Shown one piece after another: positions 12,979 through 36,053 of a stretch of DNA of 36,053 nucleotides (the stretch's first letter is position 1; every line of letters begins with the position of its first letter). The translations under genes and the position numbers were made by a program. Source of the stretch: Actinomycetota bacterium (GTDB lineage: Bacteria > Actinomycetota > Actinomycetes > S36-B12); the NCBI GenBank assembly GCA_002737125.1, contig NSHP01000002.1, forward strand, positions 1 to 36,053. Direction: 5' to 3'. The notes below the pieces were generated by a model. That model did no database searches, had not been told where the DNA came from, and saw nothing but the letters and a program-made list of their open reading frames with translations.

Positions 12979-14289
12979 CTACCGAGTCGCTAGCAAACTG
13001 CTCTGGTCAGCCGGTTCCCGGGCAACGGCTCCGGTCAGCAGGTTCCCGGGCAACGGCTCCGGTGGCCCGACCGACCCCGCCAACTTAGCCGCGGGGATTG
13101 TTTGCGGGCGGCTCTCATCAGCTATCGCCTCCCGATAAACCTCGACCGTTTGAGCCGCGATTGCGGGCCAGCCGAAATCACTTCGCACTTTGGTACGTGC
13201 GGCCCGGGCAGCCGCGGCCGCAAGCGGTGAATCAAGTAGCACCTGTACCAGGGCAGCAGCTAATTCAACTGCGTTACCTGGAGTGAAAGTGCGCCCCGTA
13301 ACACCATCTTCAACCAACTCTGCCAATCCACCGGTTCGTGCCACTACAAGCGGCGTGCCAACCGATGCTGCTTCGAGTGCAACTATGCCAAAGGGCTCAT
13401 ATAAGGACGGCACCACCACCGCATCGGCCGCAGCGACAAGCGCATGCAATTGCTCCTCAGGTAGCCAACCCAAAAAGTTCACCGCCTTACCAAGGCGCTT
13501 TGCTTTAACCTGTTCGCGCAATTGCGAGTCGGCGCTCCCCCGGCCCGCAATAACCAGGTGCACACCTGCAACCTGTCGCCGTAGGCGCGGCATCGCGTCA
13601 ATCAAGGTGTGGACACCTTTCTCCCACTCCAAGCGCCCGGTAAAAACAACTAGCGGGGTCTGGTACTGAGCTCGTGCGATTTGCCGCTGCCTGGCAGTTA
13701 CCCGCCAGCGGTCTGGGTCAATCCCATTGGCAATCACCACGGTCTTATCCAGCGGTGGGTCAAAGAGTTGCCCCACCTCCCACCGCATGTGTTCACTGCA
13801 GGCAATCACCCGCCGGGCTTCATAAGTTGACCACCACTCGATGCTGTGAATACTTCGCGAGAGTTCACTTGGTAGCCAACCTTGATGCCGACCAGCCTCG
13901 GTCGCATGCATTGTCGTCACATACGGGACGCGTGCCGCTTCTTTGATTACTGCCGCGGCGTGGGCAACCAGCCAATCATGACCGTGCACTACCTGCGGCT
14001 TCCAGGTGCGCATCAGTCGGATTCCCGCGCGAGCTACCGCGCTATTAAAGCCAGCGACCCAAGCCAGCAGGTGCTCTTCATCAAGGGGCACATACGGTGC
14101 ATCCGGGCTCACCCGCAATACCCGAACCCCGTTTACAACCTCATCAGGGCTGGCGCCATCAGTTGCCTGCGTGATTACCGCGACATCGAGGCCGAGTGCA
14201 GCTTGGGTCTGCGCGATTGCGTGCACGTGACGCCCCAAGCCGCCGTACACCACCGGTGGGTACTCCCACGACAGGTGAAGGATTCGCAC
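12979..14289 (-). CDS. GT4 family alpha-glucosyltransferase (Rv3032-like)
   Basis: (V)RILHLSWEYPPVVYGGLGRHVHAIA... is an N-terminus typical of Rv3032-type GT4 enzymes, with a C-terminal EPFGIVALEA motif. I prefer GTG 14289. The longer start GTG 14340 (MTEEAGL...) is encoded by a repeat unit (see findings). Confidence 0.85.
   Translation of the reverse strand: MRILHLSWEYPPVVYGGLGRHVHAIAQTQAALGLDVAVITQATDGASPDEVVNGVRVLRVSPDAPYVPLDEEHLLAWVAGFNSAVARAGIRLMRTWKPQVVHGHDWLVAHAAAVIKEAARVPYVTTMHATEAGRHQGWLPSELSRSIHSIEWWSTYEARRVIACSEHMRWEVGQLFDPPLDKTVVIANGIDPDRWRVTARQRQIARAQYQTPLVVFTGRLEWEKGVHTLIDAMPRLRRQVAGVHLVIAGRGSADSQLREQVKAKRLGKAVNFLGWLPEEQLHALVAAADAVVVPSLYEPFGIVALEAASVGTPLVVARTGGLAELVEDGVTGRTFTPGNAVELAAALVQVLLDSPLAAAAARAARTKVRSDFGWPAIAAQTVEVYREAIADESRPQTIPAAKLAGSVGPPEPLPGNLLTGAVAREPADQSSLLATR
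13007..13062. repeat. 28-nt tandem duplication (2 copies, 1 mismatch) inside the 3' tail of the GT4 gene
   Basis: tcagccggttcccgggcaacggctccgg (13007-13034) and tcagcaggttcccgggcaacggctccgg (13035-13062). The unit length is not a multiple of 3. Confidence 0.9.
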
Positions 14290-14317
14290 CCCCGCAGCAT
14301 ACGGCCAGCAAGCCCGG

Positions 14318-14440
14318 CCTAAACCTGCTTCTTCCGTCACCTGAGGTCCTTAAACCTGCTTCTTCCGTCACTTTTGTGGTGGATTTTGACGGAACGAGCA
14401 GGCATAAGGTCCGCCCATGACGGAACGAGCAGGCCTAAGG
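14318..14440. repeat. four copies of a 23-nt unit (TGACGGAA-SR-AGCAGG-N3/4-AAGG) as two nested inverted pairs
   Basis: Minus orientation: 14318-14339 and 14348-14370. Plus orientation: 14387-14409 and 14418-14440. The inner pair is separated by the loop cttttgtggtggattt. Confidence 0.9.
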
Positions 14441-14472
14441 CCTGTGGATAGTCATTTGGCACTACGTGATTA

Positions 14473-15438
14473 ATGCTGAACGCTGTCACCATGACATTGG
14501 ACAACTCCAACGACTCAATTTCACTGCCCGAAATCTTCACCATGTCCGAGGCCTTGGCCGCGGGTATGACCGCTGGCCAAGTGCGGCAGCGGGTTCGTTC
14601 AGGGCGCTGGGCGGCACTTGGATCTGGTACCTATTCGAGGAGTTTCCCTCGGGCCGACGATCTTGATCCGTTCGCCCAACGTCGTAATTTGCATGTGCAA
14701 CTAGCCGTTGCCCGGGCGCTGAAAGTCTCGGGCAGTGTCATTGCCTTTGGTTCTGCAGCAATGCTGCATCAGTTGCCACTCATGACTGGCACACCCCGAA
14801 ATGTTGAACTTCTTGTTCCACCTGGGGCATGGACCGGTACTCGCACGGGCACGCGGTACCGATCCGGCGCCTTAGCTCCGACAGAAATATCTCACCTGCC
14901 TGCTCCGGTGACGACCCCATTGCGAACGTGGCTCGATATCGCCCGCATCCATCCCTTCGCCGACGCAATTTGTTGCGGCGATGCGGCACTTCGCTCCGGA
15001 CTATTCACCGTTGCAGCACTCGATGCTGCCCTACCCAGCACGGATATTCGTGGCAGCAGTCGCGTACACCGCGCCGCGCGTCACCTGAGCATGCTTCGAG
15101 AATCGGCTCTAGAGTCACTCTCGTGGGTTAGATTCCTTGACTGGGACATCGAACTTCCGACCTGTCAATTTCAGGTAAGTGATAGCGGTGGGCGATTCGT
15201 CGCGCGGGTGGATTTTTGCTGGGAGGACAAAATGGTAATCGGCGAGGCTGACGGCCGTCTCAAATACACCAACAAAGAGAGTCTGTATCAGGAAAAATTA
15301 CGCGAAGATCGACTACGCGAATTGGGCTTCGTGGTAATCAGGTGGAGTTGGAGCGACTTACAAGAGCCCGCTGCCGTACTCAAGAGGCGCATATCCACTG
15401 CCCTCATACGGTCGCACCACACATTACGTTCGGCCTGA
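14473..15438 (+). CDS. AbiEi_4-like wHTH + PD-(D/E)xK (DUF559-like) endonuclease-fold protein, paralog 1
   Basis: 321 aa. N-terminus FTMSEALAAGMTAGQVRQRVRSGRWAALGSGTY (AbiEi-like wHTH). C-terminus ESLSWVRF...ARVDFCWEDKMVIGEADG...REDRLRELGFVVIRWSWSDL (D...E-x-D-G nuclease core). Clearly homologous to the 27013-27933 product (RTWLD, GD-ALRSGL, ARVD..W....V..E.DG). Confidence 0.75.
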   Translation: MLNAVTMTLDNSNDSISLPEIFTMSEALAAGMTAGQVRQRVRSGRWAALGSGTYSRSFPRADDLDPFAQRRNLHVQLAVARALKVSGSVIAFGSAAMLHQLPLMTGTPRNVELLVPPGAWTGTRTGTRYRSGALAPTEISHLPAPVTTPLRTWLDIARIHPFADAICCGDAALRSGLFTVAALDAALPSTDIRGSSRVHRAARHLSMLRESALESLSWVRFLDWDIELPTCQFQVSDSGGRFVARVDFCWEDKMVIGEADGRLKYTNKESLYQEKLREDRLRELGFVVIRWSWSDLQEPAAVLKRRISTALIRSHHTLRSA

Positions 15439-15494
15439 ACCTGCTGAAACCGTCAAAAAATGCCCAAAAAATGACGGAACGAGCAGGTACAAGG
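15434..15494. repeat. inverted pair of the same 23-nt unit family, downstream of paralog 1
   Basis: cctgaacctgctgaaaccgtca (15434-15455, degenerate), loop aaaaatgcccaaaaaa, then tgacggaacgagcaggtacaagg (15472-15494). The gene's TGA (15436-15438) lies in the left unit. Confidence 0.85.
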
Positions 15495-15556
15495 CCCACC
15501 CGTGACCAGGCGGCTACCGGCACCAAGCCCACCCGTGACCAGGCGGCTACCAGCGC
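15491..15556. repeat. about 33-nt tandem duplication (2 copies)
   Basis: An identical 24-nt core cccacccgtgaccaggcggctacc at 15495-15518 and 15528-15551, directly abutting the hairpin unit. Confidence 0.9.
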
Positions 15557-15562
15557 AAGAGC

Positions 15563-16510
15563 TTACGCGCGGGTACCGGTCACGCAAACGTTGTAAAACA
15601 ACTCATCCGGGATGACCTTTTCGAGGATATGCGCATCAAGCCAAGACAATCCCAGCCAGCTTCGGTAGGCGAACTTGGCCCAATTCCAGCCCAGTGCGCC
15701 AGGCTTGACCGCAGCCTCGAATGTTCGTACCGGCCAGCCAAACCAAGATGCGGTCAACTCTTCGGTGACCGTTTTGACATCAACCGCCCCGGCGCGCAGA
15801 CAAAGGCGCGCGAGCTGGTCAGGGTCAAAGGTGTGCAGATCGACAACTGCTTCCAATTTAGCTTCAGCTGAAGACTGTGCAAGTCCGTCTGCCGGGCGGG
15901 CCCAGCGATCACGCAGTATCGGTAACTGTGTAGCCCGCGATGCCCCCCACCAAGTTAGCCTCGACAATCGGCGCGCGACAACGTCACCATATTTGGTGGG
16001 TTCGCCACAAAAGACGAAACGCCCACCTGGCTTGAGTACCCGCAAGACTTCGCGCATCGCTAACTCAACATTTGGAAGGTGATGGAGCACGGCGTGGCCG
16101 ACGACTAAATCAAATGATTCATCAGGAAACGGGAGTTGTTCAGCGTCAGCGACTTGGCCGTTGACTTCCAGGCCCAGCCGCCGGCCATTTCGAACAGCGA
16201 CATCAACCATGCCCGGTGAAATATCAGTAACTACGCCAGATTTTGCCACCGTGGCTTGCATAAGGTTGAGCAAGAAGAACCCGGTGCCACTACCGAGCTC
16301 AAGAGCCCTGCCGTAGGGCTCCTTAACTACACCGGCAACATGCTCAAATCGACCGCGGGCGTAATCGATGCAGCGCTGATCGTATGAAATATTCCACTTC
16401 TCGTCATACGTTGACGCTTCCCAGTCGTGGTAGAGAACATTCGCCAACTTCGGGTCCGACATGGCACGAGTGATTGGATCACCGACAACAGGATCGTCCA
16501 TACGCGTCAC
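15563..16510 (-). CDS. class I SAM-dependent methyltransferase (Rv3037c-like context)
   Basis: 315 aa. Motif I ALELGSGTGFFLLNL, plus LKPGGRFVFCGEP. The GTG start overlaps the TGA of the upstream enoyl-CoA hydratase gene (GTGA at 16507-16510). Confidence 0.8.
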   Translation of the reverse strand: MTRMDDPVVGDPITRAMSDPKLANVLYHDWEASTYDEKWNISYDQRCIDYARGRFEHVAGVVKEPYGRALELGSGTGFFLLNLMQATVAKSGVVTDISPGMVDVAVRNGRRLGLEVNGQVADAEQLPFPDESFDLVVGHAVLHHLPNVELAMREVLRVLKPGGRFVFCGEPTKYGDVVARRLSRLTWWGASRATQLPILRDRWARPADGLAQSSAEAKLEAVVDLHTFDPDQLARLCLRAGAVDVKTVTEELTASWFGWPVRTFEAAVKPGALGWNWAKFAYRSWLGLSWLDAHILEKVIPDELFYNVCVTGTRA

Positions 16511-22244: not shown

Positions 22245-22364
22245 ATGCCAAGTTCAAATATTGTGGTTCCTGTGAGTTCAGCGCCGACTGATCGGTTGGT
22301 ACTTGGTGTCGGTTGGGTGCGCCCCGGTGCAGGCAGCAACTCCACAAGCTTCATTGAGTGGTGA
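22245..22364 (+). other. copy A of a duplicated module; intact 39-codon ORF on + (MPSSNIVVPVSSAPTDRLVLGVGWVRPGAGSNSTSFIEW)
   Basis: Homologous to 22463-22555, with 81 percent identity over the 64-nt core by hand alignment. The last codons and the stop come from palindromic element E1. Coding status is unproven; the antisense frame is equally compatible. Confidence 0.35.
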
Positions 22365-22412
22365 GTTGTTACAAGAAAAATACAAACTTATTTGTGTCAA
22401 CTCACCACTCAA
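22354..22412. repeat. degenerate copy (E1) of the GTTGAGTGGTGAG...CTCACCACTCAAC palindromic element
   Basis: ttgagtggtgagttg (22354-22368) pairs perfectly with caactcaccactcaa (22398-22412). The inner part is decayed relative to E2 and E3. Confidence 0.85.
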
Positions 22413-22462
22413 CGAAGAAGTTCTCACCTATAAAGATCACAACGAGAAGATTTGAGCACTAA

Positions 22463-24766: not shown

Positions 24767-26961
24767 TGGGTAAGACGCCGAAGGTAAACAAAATACCCGT
24801 GGCAATTGGAGACCTTGATCGACTTGTCGATGGTTGGCACCCCAATCCACATGAAATTCTGGGACCGCATCTATCCAACGGAGCGGTTACTGTTCGGGTA
24901 TTACGCCCCATGGCCGATTCGGTAACTGTGGTAACTGAAAATTCTTCGATCCAACTTGACCATGAATTCCGCGGAGTTTGGTGCGGAGTCATCCCGATGC
25001 CGAACGTGCCTAATTACTCAATCGAAGTTCAGTACGGTGACCAAATCGTGTCTGCAGAAGACCCGTACCGATTCTTACCGACCATTGGCGAAATCGATTT
25101 GCACTTAATCCACGAGGGACGCCACGAACAGCTCTGGGAAGTACTCGGTGCGCATACCCGCAGCTACCCAACCCCACAAGGTGAGGTAACCGGAGTTTCA
25201 TTTGCGGTATGGGCACCCAATGCGCGTGGGATTCGCCTCGCCGGCGACTTTAACTTTTGGGATGGCACCGCACATCCGATGCGCAGCCTGGGGGTGTCGG
25301 GTATTTGGGAGTTGTTCGTCCCGAATGTTACGGACGGCAACAAATATAAATTCCAAATCTTAGGAAGCGATGGGATCTGGAGGCACAAGGCCGACCCATG
25401 CGCCTTCGCAACCGAAATTCCACCCGCCAACGGTTCGGTTGTCTTTACTTCTAATTACGTCTGGCAAGACTCATTATGGATAGCCAAGCGCGCGAATATG
25501 GACGTACTTGCCGCTCCGATGAGTATCTATGAAGTCCACCTAGGCTCTTGGCGCGCCGAGCTAAAGTATCGCCAGCTCGCCGAGGAGCTAGTCGACTATC
25601 TCATCGACACTGGCTTCACCCATGTTGAGTTTCTCCCCGTCGCCGAGCACCCCTACGGACCATCCTGGGGTTACCAAGTCACTTCTTATTTCGCACCCAC
25701 CTCACGTTTTGGCTCACCCGATGACCTTCGCTATCTCATTGACCGCCTCCATCAATCCGGAATTGGCGTTTTAGTTGATTGGGTTCCGGCTCACTTCCCT
25801 AAAGATGAGTGGGCCCTGGCCCGCTTCGATGGCACCGCACTATATGAACACCCAGACCCAAAACGTGGCGAGCACCCAGACTGGGGCACCCATGTCTTTC
25901 ACTTCGGTCGCGTTGAAGTCCGAAACTTTCTAGTTGCAAATGCGCTCTACTGGTTCGAGGAGTTTCACGTCGATGGCCTGCGCGTTGATGCAGTGGCTTC
26001 AATGCTTTATCTCGATTACTCGCGGGGGCCAGGTGAGTGGGAGCCCAATCAATACGGAGGCCGCGAGAATCTCGATGCCGTTGCTTTCTTACAAGAAGTA
26101 AATGCAACGGTCTATAAGCGGGTGCCTGGAGTTGTGATGGTCGCCGAGGAATCAACCGCCTGGCCTGGTGTCACCCAGTCGACCCAATTAGGCGGATTAG
26201 GTTTTGGGCTCAAGTGGAATATGGGCTGGATGCACGATGCCCTCGGCTACATTCAGCATGAACCAATTCACCGTCAATACCACCATGATGAAATAACATT
26301 TTCCATGGTCTACGCCTATAGCGAGCACTTTGTTTTACCGGTATCTCACGACGAAGTTGTGCATGGCAAAGGCTCACTTATCGGGCGAATGCCCGGTGAC
26401 CGCTGGCAGCAACTTGCGAATCTACGAGCCTTCTTGGCCTTCATGTGGGCGCACCCCGGAAAAAAGTTGCTCTTCATGGGTTCGGAGTTTGCCCAATCTG
26501 GTGAATGGGCCAGCCAGCGCAGTCTGGATTGGTCGTTACTTCAACTTGCCGAACACGCAGGCGTCTTACTCACGGTGACTGATCTAAATAACGTTTATCG
26601 AGCGACTCCAGCGCTCTGGCAACGCGACGACGACCCAGGCGGCTTCGAGTGGATCGACGCCGGTGATGCTCCCGGAAATATTTTCACCTGGCTCCGTTGG
26701 GATAAAGCTGGCCAGCCCCTTGCCTGTGCCGTCAACTTCTCCCCCACCCCGCATACGGGTTACCGCATTGGGTTGCCGCTAAGTGGCAGTTGGACCGAAG
26801 TAATTAACACCGATGCCGACGTTTACGGTGGCAGCGGGGTCGGAAATCTTGGCGGCGTAACTGCTGTCGACGTTCCTTGGCAGGGCCGCCCAGCGTCTGC
26901 TCTGGTGGTGCTGCCGCCATTGGCCGCTATCTACCTGCGCTATGACCCAACCCCCCGTTGA
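24766..26961 (+). CDS. glgB: 1,4-alpha-glucan branching enzyme
   Basis: GTG 24766 overlaps the glgE TAG by 1 nt (TAGTG), giving 731 aa. Has [35 protein letters not shown] and SHDEVVHGK. The longer ORF-track start lies inside glgE. Confidence 0.9.
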
Positions 26962-27020
26962 GTGGTGAGGCGTTGCAACTTTTTTTGAAAAAAAGTTGCA
27001 ACGCCTCACCACTCAACGGG
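26954..27020. repeat. 67-nt perfect palindrome E2 (33+1+33)
   Basis: cccgttgagtggtgaggcgttgcaacttttttt g aaaaaaagttgcaacgcctcaccactcaacggg, centred on 26987. It contains the glgB TGA (26959-26961) in the left arm and the TGA of the convergent gene (27013-27015, minus) in the right arm. Confidence 0.95.
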
Positions 27021-27933
27021 GCCGGTTGACAGCTGGAATGCGCGAACGGCTGCGAAGTGCCGAATCAACTAATGCCACCATCCCCCAAGGTCGGATCAAG
27101 TCATTTGCCGTGAAGACAATCACCATCCAGCCTTGATCTTGCAAAAGGTTTCGCCTGGTGGCATCGTGACGGCGCTGTTTATCCTCCGCGTGCACTATTC
27201 CGTCGTACTCCGCGACAACTCTTTGCTCAGACCACGCCAAATCTACTCGTGCGATCCATTCGCCATCACTGACTATTTCCAGGTTGCACTGCGGCCTAGG
27301 TATCCCAGCCAGTACCAGGTGCGCACGCGTGATTGACTCCCCCGGTGATTCTGATTTGGGATCTAGTAGCGAAATTACTCGGCGAGCGTTTGTCACCCCG
27401 CGACGCCGATGCGCCCAGTGCACCAGCGACTCCAACTCCGCAAGCGAGGTGAGGCCGGAGCGAAGAGCGAAATCCCCCATTGCGACTAGGTGCTCGATCG
27501 GCACCAACGCTGCACAGTCAAGCCATGTGCGCGCCGCAGTCGTGACTTTAAGTCTGTGTATTTGAGTTAGGTGATCGTCGGGCATCATTAGCCGGCGACC
27601 GCGCACCCCGCGCCGCTGGGGCCGAACCCCACCCGCGGCTACCGCAACTGTGTCGGTCTGAGTGCCTTCGAGGACGGCTAGCCATGGCGGTAGCGGTAAC
27701 CCCCACAATCTAGCTGCCGAGACATCAGCTAAAACTGCTTTCGGCCCACAGACCAAACTGGCCGCAGACGCTATTGCCAATCCCCGATCGGCGACCGATA
27801 CCGCATAGCGAACCCCCCGCGACGGCGAGATCAACTTCCTCGTGCGCCCTTCGGCAAGCGTCAAGGCGTCGGGCCGCAATGTCGAAACCAAGCTGGCGCC
27901 GTTTACAACAAACTCCAGTGGAATCTTTGACAT
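27013..27933 (-). CDS. AbiEi-like/PD-(D/E)xK (DUF559-like) endonuclease-fold protein, paralog 2
   Basis: 306 aa. ...TAARTWLDCA...MGDFALRSGL...SESPGESITRAHLVLAGIPRPQCNLEI...ARVDLAWSEQRVVAEYDGIVH...RRNLLQDQGWMVIVFTANDL. Homologous to 14473-15438. The upstream 140 bp is conspicuously AT-rich. Confidence 0.75.
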   Translation of the reverse strand: MSKIPLEFVVNGASLVSTLRPDALTLAEGRTRKLISPSRGVRYAVSVADRGLAIASAASLVCGPKAVLADVSAARLWGLPLPPWLAVLEGTQTDTVAVAAGGVRPQRRGVRGRRLMMPDDHLTQIHRLKVTTAARTWLDCAALVPIEHLVAMGDFALRSGLTSLAELESLVHWAHRRRGVTNARRVISLLDPKSESPGESITRAHLVLAGIPRPQCNLEIVSDGEWIARVDLAWSEQRVVAEYDGIVHAEDKQRRHDATRRNLLQDQGWMVIVFTANDLIRPWGMVALVDSALRSRSRIPAVNRPR

Positions 27934-28075
27934 GTACTAATTACAGCTACTTAGCATTTGTGCTTCAAAATGAAAATTGATCCTGTGCGTGCCGGTCCAA
28001 CGTTGGTAGCCTTGGGGATAACTTTTAAACGTGCCCTGGATTTGGGTAGGCCAGCACAAAGTACCCGAGCACAGA

Positions 28076-28142
28076 TCCGTTGAGTGGTGAGTTGTTACAA
28101 CGTTTTTTGAAAAAAAGTTGTAACAACTCACCACTCAACGGA
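28076..28142. repeat. 67-nt palindrome E3 (one central mismatch)
   Basis: tccgttgagtggtgagttgttacaacgtttttt g aaaaaaagttgtaacaactcaccactcaacgga, centred on 28109. It differs from E2 at three stem positions, each changed on both arms so that pairing is kept. Confidence 0.95.
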
Positions 28143-35870: not shown

Positions 35871-36053
35871 GTGGGTAGGCGGTTGCGGGTATTGGCGGAC
35901 GAGCATTGTCATCATGTGACTGTGCGTTGTAATAATCGGGATTTTTTGCTGCACCGCAGTCAGTGTCGTGATGTGCTACTCGGGGCGGTGTTTCGGGCCA
36001 AGGCCAGGTATCACTTTGACGTGTATGGGGTGTGTGTGATGAGTAATCATGTG
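35871..36053 (+). mobile_element. 5' part of an HUH Y1 transposase gene (RAYT / IS200-like, COG1943 type), runs off the window
   Basis: An open frame with no stop to the window end: (V)GRRLRVLADEHCHHVTVRCNNRDFLLHRSQCRDVLLGAVFRAKARYHFDVYGVCVMSNHV. It matches the HHVTxRxNxRxxxF ... YCxMxNHVH (HUH) pattern. Candidate starts are TTG 35865, GTG 35868 and GTG 35871. Confidence 0.7.

What the first reader, a model, noticed from the sequence alone, without database searches (positions are those of the whole stretch)
14318..15556. Second paralogous AbiEi/DUF559-like gene bracketed by six copies of a different 23-nt unit in nested inverted pairs
The unit TGACGGAA(C/G)(G/A)AGCAGG-N3/4-AAGG occurs at 14318-14339 (-), 14348-14370 (-), 14387-14409 (+), 14418-14440 (+), 15434-15455 (-, degenerate) and 15472-15494 (+). 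Upstream of the gene the four copies form two nested hairpins. Downstream there is one hairpin plus an adjoining 33-nt tandem duplication. The three plus-orientation copies share an identical 16-nt core. The gene (14473-15438) is a clear paralog of 27013-27933. It interrupts an otherwise Rv3030-Rv3039c-like cluster between the GT4 gene and the second methyltransferase. So two paralogous nuclease-fold genes each sit inside a conserved glucan locus, each flanked by hairpin repeats of different sequence families. This suggests these genes travel as hairpin-bounded cassettes, or that they attract REP-like elements.
Basis: partly seen in the sequence, partly recalled or inferred. Interest (0 to 1): 0.65.

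Follow-up and report, generated by a model that had tools for sequence, protein, structure and literature searches.

The report
Nuclease gene cassette framed by cognate repeats
A 1.24-kb piece of DNA inserted into a sugar-polymer gene cluster carries one gene for a DNA-binding nuclease. It is framed by arrays of a 23-bp site that looks like that protein's own binding site and is also scattered through the genome, an arrangement found in no paper searched.

Summary
They form inverted pairs with an invariant 16-bp spacer, plus tandem copies every 31 bp.

The gene (14473-15438) encodes an AbiEi-type DNA-binding module fused to a Vsr/EDxHD-type nuclease domain. The catalytic residues are conserved and dN/dS is about 0.16.

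Gene plus repeats is an insertion:
- One same-genus genome and three other genera have the methyltransferase and glycosyltransferase genes directly adjacent.
- In one genome the cassette alone is a foreign allele (dS 0.16 against 1.2-2.0 in the flanks).
- Another genome keeps a remnant of the cassette's 5' end at a different site.

The unit family also sits at other intergenic loci, including in genomes that lack the gene. The paralog at 27013-27933 is framed by a second repeat family.

Across 74 named relatives, the upstream and downstream flanks share a word of 13 nt or more in 54% (4.5% in controls). A DnaA-box-like motif precedes the gene in 74% of 77 relatives.

Best reading (about 0.5): a selfish or semi-domesticated nuclease-and-repeat cassette, similar in layout to REP/RAYT systems but built on an unrelated enzyme. 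Binding and cutting are inferred, not shown.

The parts
12979..14289 (-). GT4 glycosyltransferase gene, left neighbour of the insert. The start is GTG at 14289-14287.
   Evidence: Pfam Glycos_transf_1 and Glyco_transf_4. The start codon position is conserved in relatives, and homology with the empty-site genome ends at 14306.
14307..15545 (.). Inserted cassette of about 1.24 kb: repeat array, DnaA-box-like motif, gene, repeat array. The right edge is approximate.
   Evidence: The segment is absent from the MT-GT4 junction of G004 and of three other genera, where the spacer is about 27-90 bp. In G008 it was replaced as a unit. No target-site duplication is discernible.
14318..14339 (-). Unit 1 (core TGACGGAAGAAGCAGG), outer tandem copy of the left arm.
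   Evidence: It lies 31 bp from unit 2.
14348..14370 (-). Unit 2, left half of the central upstream inverted pair.
14371..14386 (.). 16-bp spacer CTTTTGTGGTGGATTT of the upstream pair. It is the candidate cleavage or bending site.
   Evidence: The spacer is exactly 16 bp in 39 of 39 pairs. Its ends are A/T-rich and its centre G/C-rich, and its sequence varies between loci.
14387..14409 (+). Unit 3 (core TGACGGAACGAGCAGG), right half of the central upstream pair.
14418..14440 (+). Unit 4, tandem copy 31 bp after unit 3.
   Evidence: The number of copies varies among orthologous loci.
14443..14451 (+). DnaA-box-like motif TGTGGATAG between the array and the start codon.
   Evidence: TGTGGAYR lies within -130 to +30 of the start in 57 of 77 relatives, against 0.037 expected per 160 nt. 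The consensus is cCTGTGGAYRAc.
14473..15438 (+). Gene p1 (321 aa): AbiEi-type winged helix plus AbiEi C-domain (about residues 20-200), fused to a Vsr/EDxHD/DUF559-type nuclease domain (about residues 205-305).
   Evidence: Pfam AbiEi_4 and DUF559, both just under their cut-offs. PADLOC AbiEi E = 4e-10 over residues 21-195. AF2 model pLDDT 91.4. Foldseek matches 6y8q and 1zel (AbiEi, Rv2827c) and 3r3p (I-Bth0305I, TM 0.77). Invariant D247, E258, G261 and near-invariant D260, K264. dN/dS about 0.16.
15434..15455 (-). Unit 5 (core TGACGGTTTCAGCAGG). It overlaps the stop codon of p1.
15456..15471 (.). 16-bp spacer AAAAATGCCCAAAAAA of the downstream pair.
15472..15494 (+). Unit 6 (core TGACGGAACGAGCAGG).
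15486..15551 (+). Two 33-nt tandem copies, probably decayed units. This junction is unstable among relatives.
   Evidence: 91% identity. Relatives carry different duplications here, including a 54-nt duplication (2.1 copies) of the methyltransferase 3' end.
15563..16510 (-). Class I SAM methyltransferase gene, right neighbour. In empty-site genomes it lies directly upstream of GT4 on the same strand.
   Evidence: Pfam Methyltransf_11. Synteny.
26953..28142 (-). Second cassette: paralog p2 (27013-27933) framed by 67-69-nt near-perfect palindromes of a different family (26953-27021 and 28076-28142).
   Evidence: Family 2 occurs at five loci in the assembly, and two of them frame p2.
35871..36053 (+). 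5' part of a Y1 (IS200/RAYT-like) transposase gene, cut by the contig end. It is a rival mobiliser, not part of the cassette.
   Evidence: PF01797 orthologs are present in 5 of 12 genus genomes. None has family-1 or family-2 units or any hairpin within about 1.5 kb.

Best explanation
Window 14307 to about 15545 is an inserted single-gene cassette. Its product joins an AbiEi-type DNA-binding module to a Vsr/EDxHD-type nuclease domain.

The 23-bp units that frame the gene are most likely the protein's own binding sites, one monomer per unit, as shown for AbiEi and Rv2827c on their 23-bp inverted repeats. The proposed steps are:
1. Upstream, binding overlaps the promoter region and auto-represses the gene. 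The conserved DnaA-box-like motif would tie expression to replication status.
2. At an inverted pair, two monomers face each other across the invariant 16-bp spacer. This would let the two nuclease domains nick or cut there.
3. Breaks or protein roadblocks at these sites promote recombination. That recombination copies or replaces the cassette between related chromosomes, seeds and preserves solitary copies, and produces the local tandem duplications seen next to the arrays.

Shown: the insertion, the cassette-limited foreign allele, the second-site remnant, purifying selection, the fold and conserved catalytic residues, the site geometry, and family-wide flank matching.

Inferred: binding, autoregulation, cutting, and that the nuclease itself drives mobility.
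For: **Insertion.**
- The MT-GT4 junction is empty in G004 and in three other genera.
- Six genus genomes carry the cassette or a remnant of it at this junction.

**Separate history of the cassette.**
- G008 and G003 are sisters in the flanks (93-98% identity, dS 0.14-0.20) but differ in the cassette (75% identity, dS 1.12).
- The G008 cassette matches G000 and G009 (dS 0.16 and 0.065), while its flanks are at dS 1.2-2.0 from G000.
- The breakpoints fall in the leftmost unit and a few codons inside the methyltransferase 3' end.

**Second site.** G004 C25 carries pair, cassette-specific spacer, DnaA box and ATG (86-92% identity over about 100 nt) between unrelated genes. Relatives in the same protein clade sit in at least two further chromosomal contexts.

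**Function retained.**
- dN/dS is about 0.16.
- D247, E258, D260 and K264 are conserved across 43 homologs.
- The confident model has an AbiEi-like N-terminal part and an I-Bth0305I-like C-terminal part.

**Site geometry fits a double-stranded binding site.**
- The spacer is 16 bp in 39 of 39 pairs, and tandem spacing is 31 bp in 44 of 46 cases.
- The two hexamers start 10 bp apart, and the central 4 nt are complementary in only 5 of 39 pairs.
- AbiEi and Rv2827c bind 23-bp inverted repeats 3 or 13 bp apart (PMC7319586).

**Gene-repeat link.**
- 2 of 6 family-1 loci frame p1 and 2 of 5 family-2 loci frame p2.
- In genus G022, 2 of 3 loci of a different unit (TGACGCCACCTGCAGG) frame the 41%-identical homolog.
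- In 74 named relatives the two flanks share a word of 13 nt or more in 40 cases, against 12 of 267 shifted controls.
- The closest homologs keep the same theme, CCTGC-N4-6-CGTCA.

**Instability next to arrays.** Unrelated tandem duplications abut the unit arrays at 8 of 26 loci.
Against: - No binding or cleavage has been tested.
- The unit family persists in G004 (13 units, 96% complete, no intact homolog). Unit counts do not track gene presence across the genus.
- Several solitary loci sit at orthologous positions across lineages that differ by 17-28% in nucleotides in the flanking sequence. Most copies are therefore old and static.
- The one clear new solitary copy, in G004, is a 167-nt segmental duplication that includes non-unit sequence. 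That does not look like precise transposition.
- The empty site holds no unit, so simple homing into a pre-existing site does not explain the first insertion.
- G003 lacks the downstream pair.
- All genus genomes are metagenome bins. The G008 mosaic could in principle be an assembly chimera joined at repeats.
- p1 has K264 where p2 and classical DUF559 proteins have His.
Confidence: 0.5

Rival explanations
1. p1 is an autoregulated stand-alone defence or addiction gene: an AbiEi-like repressor fused to a toxic or anti-phage nuclease. It rides on a small island moved by ordinary homologous recombination. The units are only operators. Solitary copies are footprints of decayed cassettes or extra regulatory sites, and the nuclease does not act on the units.
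For: - The AbiEi fold and HMM matches cover both AbiEi domains.
- The operator-like layout of four 23-bp units within about 155 bp of the start resembles the Rv2827c promoter.
- G004 site D shows that a solitary pair can be a cassette remnant.
- The G008 breakpoints lie in or next to conserved stretches that ordinary homologous recombination could use.
Against: - It does not explain why a second pair regularly follows the stop codon.
- It does not explain why solitary loci keep intact units while their spacers drift.
- No partner toxin (AbiEii/DUF1814) is adjacent.
- Solitary loci other than site D carry no promoter or DnaA-box remnant.
Confidence: 0.22
2. The units are REP/MITE-like elements moved by another enzyme, for example the Y1 (RAYT/IS200-like) transposase at the window edge. 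They merely accumulate in the non-essential DNA around a horizontally acquired gene.
For: - A Y1 transposase gene starts at 35871.
- Units occur at ordinary intergenic sites and in genomes without p1.
Against: - Y1 orthologs in five genus genomes have no family-1 or family-2 units and no hairpins within about 1.5 kb.
- G004 has 13 units but no Y1 gene, while G001 and G005 have the Y1 gene but only 2 and 1 units.
- The units lack the GTAG tag of RAYT-associated REPs.
- Each paralog, and each homolog in other genera, is framed by its own family. Related proteins have related units, which random accumulation does not predict.
Confidence: 0.08
3. The repeat arrays are structural or regulatory insulators with no specific link to the protein. 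Examples would be bidirectional terminators, mRNA stabilisers or supercoiling barriers, selected to shield the interrupted MT-GT4 operon and other operons.
For: - The cassette splits an operon in antisense orientation.
- The single strands can fold (z from -4.6 to -5.9).
- The other loci lie between genes.
Against: - No terminator-like site is predicted at the arrays.
- The loops are 16 nt, and the central bubbles are non-complementary in 34 of 39 pairs.
- The family-wide co-occurrence with this gene family and the conserved sequence theme among close homologs remain unexplained.
Confidence: 0.08

Closest known systems
REP/REPIN-RAYT systems (REP-associated tyrosine transposases; PMC2817692, PMC3733652)
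   Same: - A single-copy gene is framed on both sides by its cognate short repeat.
- The same repeat is dispersed as inverted doublets in intergenic DNA.
- Different paralogs go with different repeat families.
- Repeats can outlive the gene.
   Different: - The enzyme is unrelated: an AbiEi winged helix plus a Vsr-like PD-(D/E)xK nuclease, not a Y1 HUH transposase.
- There is no GTAG tag.
- Pairs have a fixed 16-bp spacer, non-complementary centres and 31-bp tandem phasing, which suggests recognition of double-stranded DNA.
- Copy number is low (1-39 units per genome).
- A DnaA-box-like motif precedes the gene.
AbiEi / Rv2827c antitoxin-repressors of type IV AbiE toxin-antitoxin systems and their operators (PMC7319586)
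   Same: - The N-terminal about 200 residues have the AbiEi fold (6y8q, 1zel).
- The upstream region carries several 23-bp inverted repeats with a fixed gap, as in the abiE and rv2827c promoters.
   Different: - No AbiEii/DUF1814 toxin gene is adjacent, and a nuclease domain is fused instead.
- Repeats also follow the gene and are dispersed in the genome.
- The gap is 16 bp rather than 3 or 13 bp.
EDxHD / Vsr-like homing endonucleases (I-Bth0305I, PDB 3r3p) and DUF559 proteins (PDB 3hrl)
   Same: - The C-terminal about 100 residues superpose on the I-Bth0305I catalytic domain (TM 0.77, rmsd 3.0 A).
- Acidic catalytic residues are conserved.
- The gene behaves as a mobile cassette with allele replacement limited to the element.
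   Different: - It is not inside an intron or intein.
- The site is regenerated on both sides rather than destroyed.
- The empty site holds no recognisable target.
- Lys264 stands where the His of the motif is expected.
CGTC-tagged REPs without a dedicated transposase (Di Nocera et al. 2013, PMC3733652)
   Same: - They are short palindromic repeats carrying a CGTC/GACG motif, often in inverted doublets.
- No associated transposase is known.
   Different: - They were described mainly in Alphaproteobacteria, and Actinobacteria are not mentioned in the paper.
- No sequence relationship was tested. The resemblance is a lead only.

Membership tests
AbiE type IV toxin-antitoxin system (AbiEi antitoxin) | AbiEi two-domain fold (N-terminal winged helix plus C-terminal domain). 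| tested here: met
   Foldseek 6y8q_A E = 1.2e-5 and 1zel_A E = 1.4e-5. PADLOC AbiEi E = 4e-10 over residues 21-195. Pfam AbiEi_4 scores 23.4 bits, just under its cut-off of 25.
AbiE type IV toxin-antitoxin system (AbiEi antitoxin) | Adjacent AbiEii (DUF1814 nucleotidyltransferase) toxin gene in a bicistronic operon. | tested here: not met
   The neighbours are a GT4 glycosyltransferase and a SAM methyltransferase. The cassette holds a single ORF.
AbiE type IV toxin-antitoxin system (AbiEi antitoxin) | 23-bp inverted repeats in the promoter, bound by the protein for autoregulation. | tested here: inconclusive
   Four 23-nt units lie 33-155 bp upstream with fixed spacing, matching the published layout. 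Binding was not testable.
REP/REPIN-RAYT | The gene encodes a Y1 HUH (IS200-like) transposase. | tested here: not met
   p1 gives no Y1_Tnp hit, and its fold is AbiEi plus Vsr-like.
REP/REPIN-RAYT | The gene is framed by its cognate repeat, which is also dispersed as inverted doublets. | tested here: met
   2 of 6 loci frame p1 and 2 of 5 frame p2. The same holds in G022 and in 40 of 74 relatives against 12 of 267 controls.
REP/REPIN-RAYT | REP hairpin with a conserved 5' GTAG tetranucleotide, recognised as single-stranded DNA. | tested here: not met
   The units start with TGACGG and carry no GTAG. The central 4 nt are complementary in only 5 of 39 pairs.
Vsr-like / EDxHD homing endonucleases | Vsr-type PD-(D/E)xK catalytic fold. 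| tested here: met
   3r3p TM 0.77 and rmsd 3.0 A over 101 columns, 3hrl TM 0.68. The profile hits 3hrl at E = 4.5e-4.
Vsr-like / EDxHD homing endonucleases | Full catalytic motif (E, D, H, D). | tested here: inconclusive
   D247, E258 and D260 are conserved. K264-Y265 replace the His seen in p2 (EYDGIVH).
Vsr-like / EDxHD homing endonucleases | The gene resides in an intron or intein and homes into a cognate empty allele. | tested here: not met
   The gene is free-standing between genes, and the empty allele carries no unit. Cassette-limited allele replacement was seen once.
Pfam DUF559 (PF04480) | Score above the gathering threshold. | tested here: inconclusive
   p1 scores 20.0 bits against a cut-off of 20.6. 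p2 scores 30.8 bits and passes.
Classical insertion sequence or transposon | Recognised transposase domain, terminal inverted repeats and target-site duplication. | tested here: not met
   There is no transposase domain. No duplication is discernible when filled and empty sites are compared. The ends are full inverted pairs, not single terminal repeats.

The most novel reading that the evidence does not exclude
AbiEi-Vsr proteins are the dedicated enzymes of a previously unrecognised class of actinobacterial nuclease-and-repeat elements.
- Each paralog binds its own 23-bp sites as phased arrays and cuts or nicks in the 16-bp spacer of inverted pairs.
- It thereby drives homing-like replacement of its cassette between related chromosomes.
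- It also seeds and preserves solitary copies, with expression gated by DnaA.

This would be a second, independently evolved counterpart of REP/RAYT systems, acting on double-stranded DNA.
Probability: 0.3. Interest if true: 0.85.

Novelty: new variant of a known kind. Interest (0 to 1): 0.68.

Why it matters
**Size of the family.** One phmmer pass finds 8,664 representatives at the 50%-identity level with E up to 1e-3, and 3,014 with E up to 1e-10. The family is annotated only as 'DUF559', 'AbiEi-domain' or 'very-short-patch-repair endonuclease'.

**If the proteins act on the repeats that frame them.** Actinomycetota would then have their own nuclease-and-repeat partnership, parallel to REP/RAYT but working on double-stranded sites. 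It would be a new source of operon disruption, local duplication and gene-sized horizontal replacement.

**What this locus adds.**
- It gives unusually clear handles for a test. The repeat is a modular 23-bp site with fixed 16-bp and 31-bp spacings that matches the known AbiEi operator logic.
- Natural empty, filled, replaced and decayed alleles all exist within one genus.

**Annotation.** Such genes next to AbiEi-like domains should not be called antitoxins or Vsr repair enzymes.

Tried and rejected
- **Y1/RAYT transposase as mobiliser.** Its orthologs carry no units or hairpins nearby, and its presence does not track unit counts.
- **Hairpin or terminator function.** No terminator-like site is predicted at the arrays, and the central tetranucleotides are mostly non-complementary.
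- **Canonical AbiE toxin-antitoxin pair.** There is no AbiEii neighbour.
- **Classical transposon.** No transposase domain and no target-site duplication were found.
- **Dependence of the units on the gene.** Unit counts per genome do not follow presence of p1. I therefore do not claim that the gene is needed to keep the units.
- **Scatter of solitary loci.**
  - Three G000 loci are at orthologous positions in other genus genomes.
  - Presence/absence differences exist: site B occurs only in G004, and site E is absent in G001 and G005.
  - The one clear gain is a 167-nt segmental duplication, not a clean doublet insertion.
- **Public metagenome contigs laid on the locus.** They break at the repeats. 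The only joint has 20 nt on one side, which is not usable as evidence of excision.
- **Literature.** No paper holds both 'DUF559' and 'AbiEi', and none holds REPIN, RAYT and Actinobacteria together. DUF559 appears only as a table row among predicted inversion targets in PMC9881135.
- **NCBIfam.** It gave no family for p1.
Full report
**What is in the sequence**

Each unit is TGACGG-N4-AGCAGG followed by TTnAAGG.

Upstream of the gene the order is (-)(-)(+)(+). Downstream it is (-)(+), followed by two 33-nt copies that look like decayed units.

Two corrections are needed:
- Comparison with relatives puts the GT4 start at GTG 14289-14287, so no unit lies in coding sequence.
- The 'degenerate' downstream copy has both hexamers intact and differs only in the central four bases.

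**Geometry of the repeat**

I measured spacing in the window's assembly and in 25 loci from six other genomes of the same genus.
- All 39 inverted pairs have a start-to-start distance of 32 nt, which means a spacer of exactly 16 bp.
- 44 of 46 tandem neighbours are exactly 31 bp apart.
- The two conserved hexamers start 10 bp apart.
- The spacer varies in sequence but keeps A/T-rich ends and a G/C-rich centre.
- The central tetranucleotides of the two arms are complementary in only 5 of 39 pairs.

The strands can fold in silico. Even so, fixed spacing without conserved pairing is what one expects of phased protein-binding sites on double-stranded DNA, not of a selected hairpin.

**The protein**

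p1 (321 aa) scores just under threshold for Pfam AbiEi_4 and DUF559.
- PADLOC AbiEi models match residues 21-195 (E = 4e-10).
- An AlphaFold2 model built on 43 homologs is confident (pLDDT 91.4).
- Its N-terminal two thirds match the AbiEi antitoxin (6y8q) and Rv2827c (1zel).
- Its C-terminal 100 residues match the catalytic domain of the Vsr-like homing endonuclease I-Bth0305I (3r3p, TM 0.77) and a DUF559 protein (3hrl) (sequence-profile support).
- D247, E258 and G261 are invariant, and D260, K264 and Y265 nearly so.
- dN/dS between orthologs is 0.15-0.19 in seven of the eight pairs compared, at both small and large divergence (0.35 in the eighth), so the gene is maintained.

There is no AbiEii toxin gene. 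The neighbours are a GT4 glycosyltransferase and a SAM methyltransferase.

Published work shows that AbiEi binds two 23-bp inverted repeats 3 bp apart. It also shows that Rv2827c binds four 23-bp repeats with 13-bp gaps within 131 bp of its start codon, one protein per repeat (PMC7319586). The four 23-nt units lying 33-155 bp upstream of p1 are a close formal match. That p1 binds them is an inference from this homology.

**It is an insertion**

The genome is a 57%-complete freshwater actinobacterial bin. Its nearest named relative is 'Actinomycetes bacterium ELA321'.

| Genome(s) | State of the MT-GT4 junction |
|---|---|
| G003, G007, G008, G009, G011 | Ortholog of p1 present, with different numbers of 31-bp copies; G003 lacks the downstream pair |
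| G010 | Only the last ~45 nt of the gene and the downstream pair remain, next to what looks like an insertion-sequence fragment (read by eye from L011, not tested) |
| G004 (96% complete) | Methyltransferase stop and GT4 start about 45 bp apart, with no unit |
| G013, G014, G022 (other genera) | Also empty |

The ancestral state is therefore an uninterrupted MT-GT4 pair. The cassette was inserted into its spacer in antisense orientation. I see no target-site duplication.

**The cassette has its own history**

G003 and G008 are sister genomes in the flanks: 93-98% identity, dS 0.14 for GT4 and 0.20 for the methyltransferase. Between about 14320 and 15570 they are only about 75% identical (p1 dS 1.12).

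In that same interval G008 is 94% identical to G000 (dS 0.16) and closer still to G009 (dS 0.065). Its flanks differ from G000 at dS 1.2-2.0.

The switch occurs inside the leftmost unit on one side and a few codons into the methyltransferase 3' end on the other. This is a cassette-sized horizontal replacement.

There is a caveat. All these genomes are metagenome bins, and an assembler could join two strains at repeats. The shared stretches at the breakpoints are only about 20 nt, which makes this unlikely but not excluded.

**A second site**

G004 has the empty MT-GT4 junction and no detectable homolog of p1 or p2. Between a probable cytochrome P450 gene and a probable lipoprotein gene (both judged by eye from their translations, not tested) it nevertheless carries a (-)(+) pair with the cassette-specific spacer (TTTTTGTGGTGGTTTA).
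- This pair is followed by GTGGATAGTCATTTGGCA...ATGCTGGAC, which is the DnaA-box-like motif, the leader and the first codons of p1.
- After that the similarity ends (86-92% identity over about 100 nt).
- The sister lineages have other sequence in that spacer.

The cassette has therefore occupied at least two sites in the genus and has decayed at one of them. Homologs at 41-46% identity in other genera sit in yet other contexts, for example next to a HAD-type (SerB-like) hydrolase gene, named by eye from the translation.

**The repeat family beyond the gene**

In the window's assembly the family occupies six loci. Two frame p1. The other four lie in ordinary intergenic DNA: trmI-mpa, a quinone oxidoreductase gene next to a glycoside hydrolase gene, an epimerase gene, and a hydrolase gene next to cpaF.

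Three of these four loci are at orthologous positions in other genus genomes. One is shared with the G004 lineage, whose flanks at that locus are 72-84% identical to G000. The units are conserved there while the spacer drifts.

Unit counts per genome are as follows.

| Genome | p1 ortholog | Units (forward + reverse) |
|---|---|---|
| G000 | yes | 16 |
| G007 | yes | 39 |
| G009 | yes | 37 |
| G011 | yes | 38 |
| G008 | yes | 13 |
| G003 | yes | 5 |
| G010 | remnant only | 19 |
| G002 | no | 29 |
| G006 | no | 20 |
| G004 | no | 13 |
| G001 | no | 2 |
| G005 | no | 1 |

The units therefore do not need the gene to persist.

Presence/absence differences exist. One locus is found only in G004, and another is absent in G001 and G005. 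The one clear gain is a 167-nt segmental duplication that includes non-unit sequence.

Next to the arrays, unrelated tandem duplications of host sequence are frequent: nine tandem repeats at 8 of the 26 loci scanned, with periods of 10-61 nt. They include a duplication of the methyltransferase 3' end. These loci are hot spots of local rearrangement.

**Is the gene-repeat link more than chance?**

Several independent lines say it is.
- p2 is framed by two near-perfect 67-69-nt palindromes of a second family. That family has five loci in the assembly.
- In genus G022 the 41%-identical homolog is framed by inverted pairs of TGACGCCACCTGCAGG, a unit with only three loci in that genome.
- Of 23 homolog loci from relatives, about ten have sequence-matched long inverted repeats on both sides.
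- In 74 named genomes from across Actinomycetota, the upstream and downstream flanks share an exact word of 13 nt or more in 40 cases. Intervals shifted within the same loci do so in 12 of 267 cases. For words of 15 nt or more the figures are 26 of 74 and 4 of 267.
- The closest homologs keep a common theme, CCTGC-N4-6-CGTCA, while more distant ones have unrelated sequences. This is what co-divergence of a protein and its site would give.

**A second conserved element**

In 57 of 77 loci, TGTGGAYR lies within -130 to +30 of the start, in either orientation. The expectation is 0.037 per 160 nt. The consensus cCTGTGGAYRAc equals the actinobacterial DnaA box TTGTCCACA read on the other strand.

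In the window it is TGTGGATAG at 14443-14451. The motif is constant while the framing repeats vary, so a conserved host factor, presumably DnaA, is the likely reader. This is an inference.

**Rivals**

- A Y1 (RAYT/IS200-like) transposase gene begins at 35871.
  - Its orthologs in five genus genomes have no units or hairpins nearby.
  - Its distribution does not follow unit counts.
- A purely regulatory reading, with the units as operators of a defence or addiction gene, remains viable. It does not explain the pair after the stop codon or the conservation of solitary units.
- A terminator or insulator role finds no support.

**Relation to what is known**

The layout is that of REP/RAYT units, but the enzyme, the tag and the likely DNA form differ. 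The N-terminal module and the site logic are those of AbiEi/Rv2827c, but there is no toxin partner. The nuclease domain is that of Vsr-like homing endonucleases, but the gene is free-standing and its sites are regenerated.

I found no paper describing the arrangement. The nearest is a table row listing DUF559 proteins as enriched among predicted inversion targets (PMC9881135).

Earlier notes of this scan report the same pattern in many genomes. I used them as leads and re-tested the points listed under earlier findings.

**Verdict**

The mechanism I favour (confidence 0.5) is that the protein binds the units as phased arrays, represses itself, and nicks or cuts at inverted pairs. This would promote cassette replacement and local rearrangement. 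That mechanism rests on homology and comparative patterns and needs biochemistry.

The dependence of dispersed units on the gene is not supported by the genus data and should not be assumed.

Noticed in passing
window 26953-28142: The paralog p2 is framed by 67-69-nt near-perfect palindromes of a second family (GTTGAGTGGTGAG...). Further copies lie at window 22353-22413 and on contigs C9 and C10. The left palindrome overlaps the 3' end of p2. TGTGGAYR was not found upstream of p2.
   Followed up: partly
window 35871-36053: The 5' part of a Y1 (IS200/RAYT-like) transposase gene is cut by the contig end. In G008 the contig also ends inside this gene, which suggests a multi-copy or repeat-bounded element. 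Orthologs have no hairpins within 1.5 kb.
   Followed up: partly
L011 (G010:C257) about 215-1360: At the same junction, p1 has been replaced by about 1.1 kb. By eye this holds an insertion-sequence (integrase-core-like) fragment on the minus strand and a small ORF; neither was tested. Only the last 45 nt of p1 and the downstream pair remain.
   Followed up: no
L053 1333-1530, L054 1009-1103, L056 1555-1637, L059 1146-1244 and 1504-1551, L002 2559-2671: Tandem repeats of unrelated host sequence (periods 10-61 nt, up to about 10 copies) directly abut unit arrays at several loci. They include duplicated 3' ends of neighbouring genes. Unit loci look like hot spots of local duplication.
   Followed up: partly
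L031 (G010:C105) 632-700 and 1880-1956: A third paralog in the genus (30% identical to p1) is framed by yet another palindrome family (TGAGTGCGCACGATTTGGTCGTGAAA).
   Followed up: no
L044 1164-1330 versus L048 1068-1234 (both G004): A 167-nt segment is duplicated at 92% identity between two intergenic sites. It comprises a unit array plus about 23 nt on one side and 65 nt on the other. The second site is empty in G001, G002, G007 and G011.
   Followed up: partly
window 14371-14386 and the equivalent spacers genus-wide: The 16-bp spacers share a composition pattern (A/T runs at both ends, G/C-rich centre, for example AAAATCGGCCGAAATT) although their sequences differ. Some are themselves short palindromes.
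   Followed up: no
window 14290-14472: After the insertion, GT4 is cut off from the methyltransferase gene. It now diverges from p1 across a 183-bp region filled by the four units, so its transcription probably depends on a promoter inside or next to the array. The sigma-70 consensus scan found none.
   Followed up: partly
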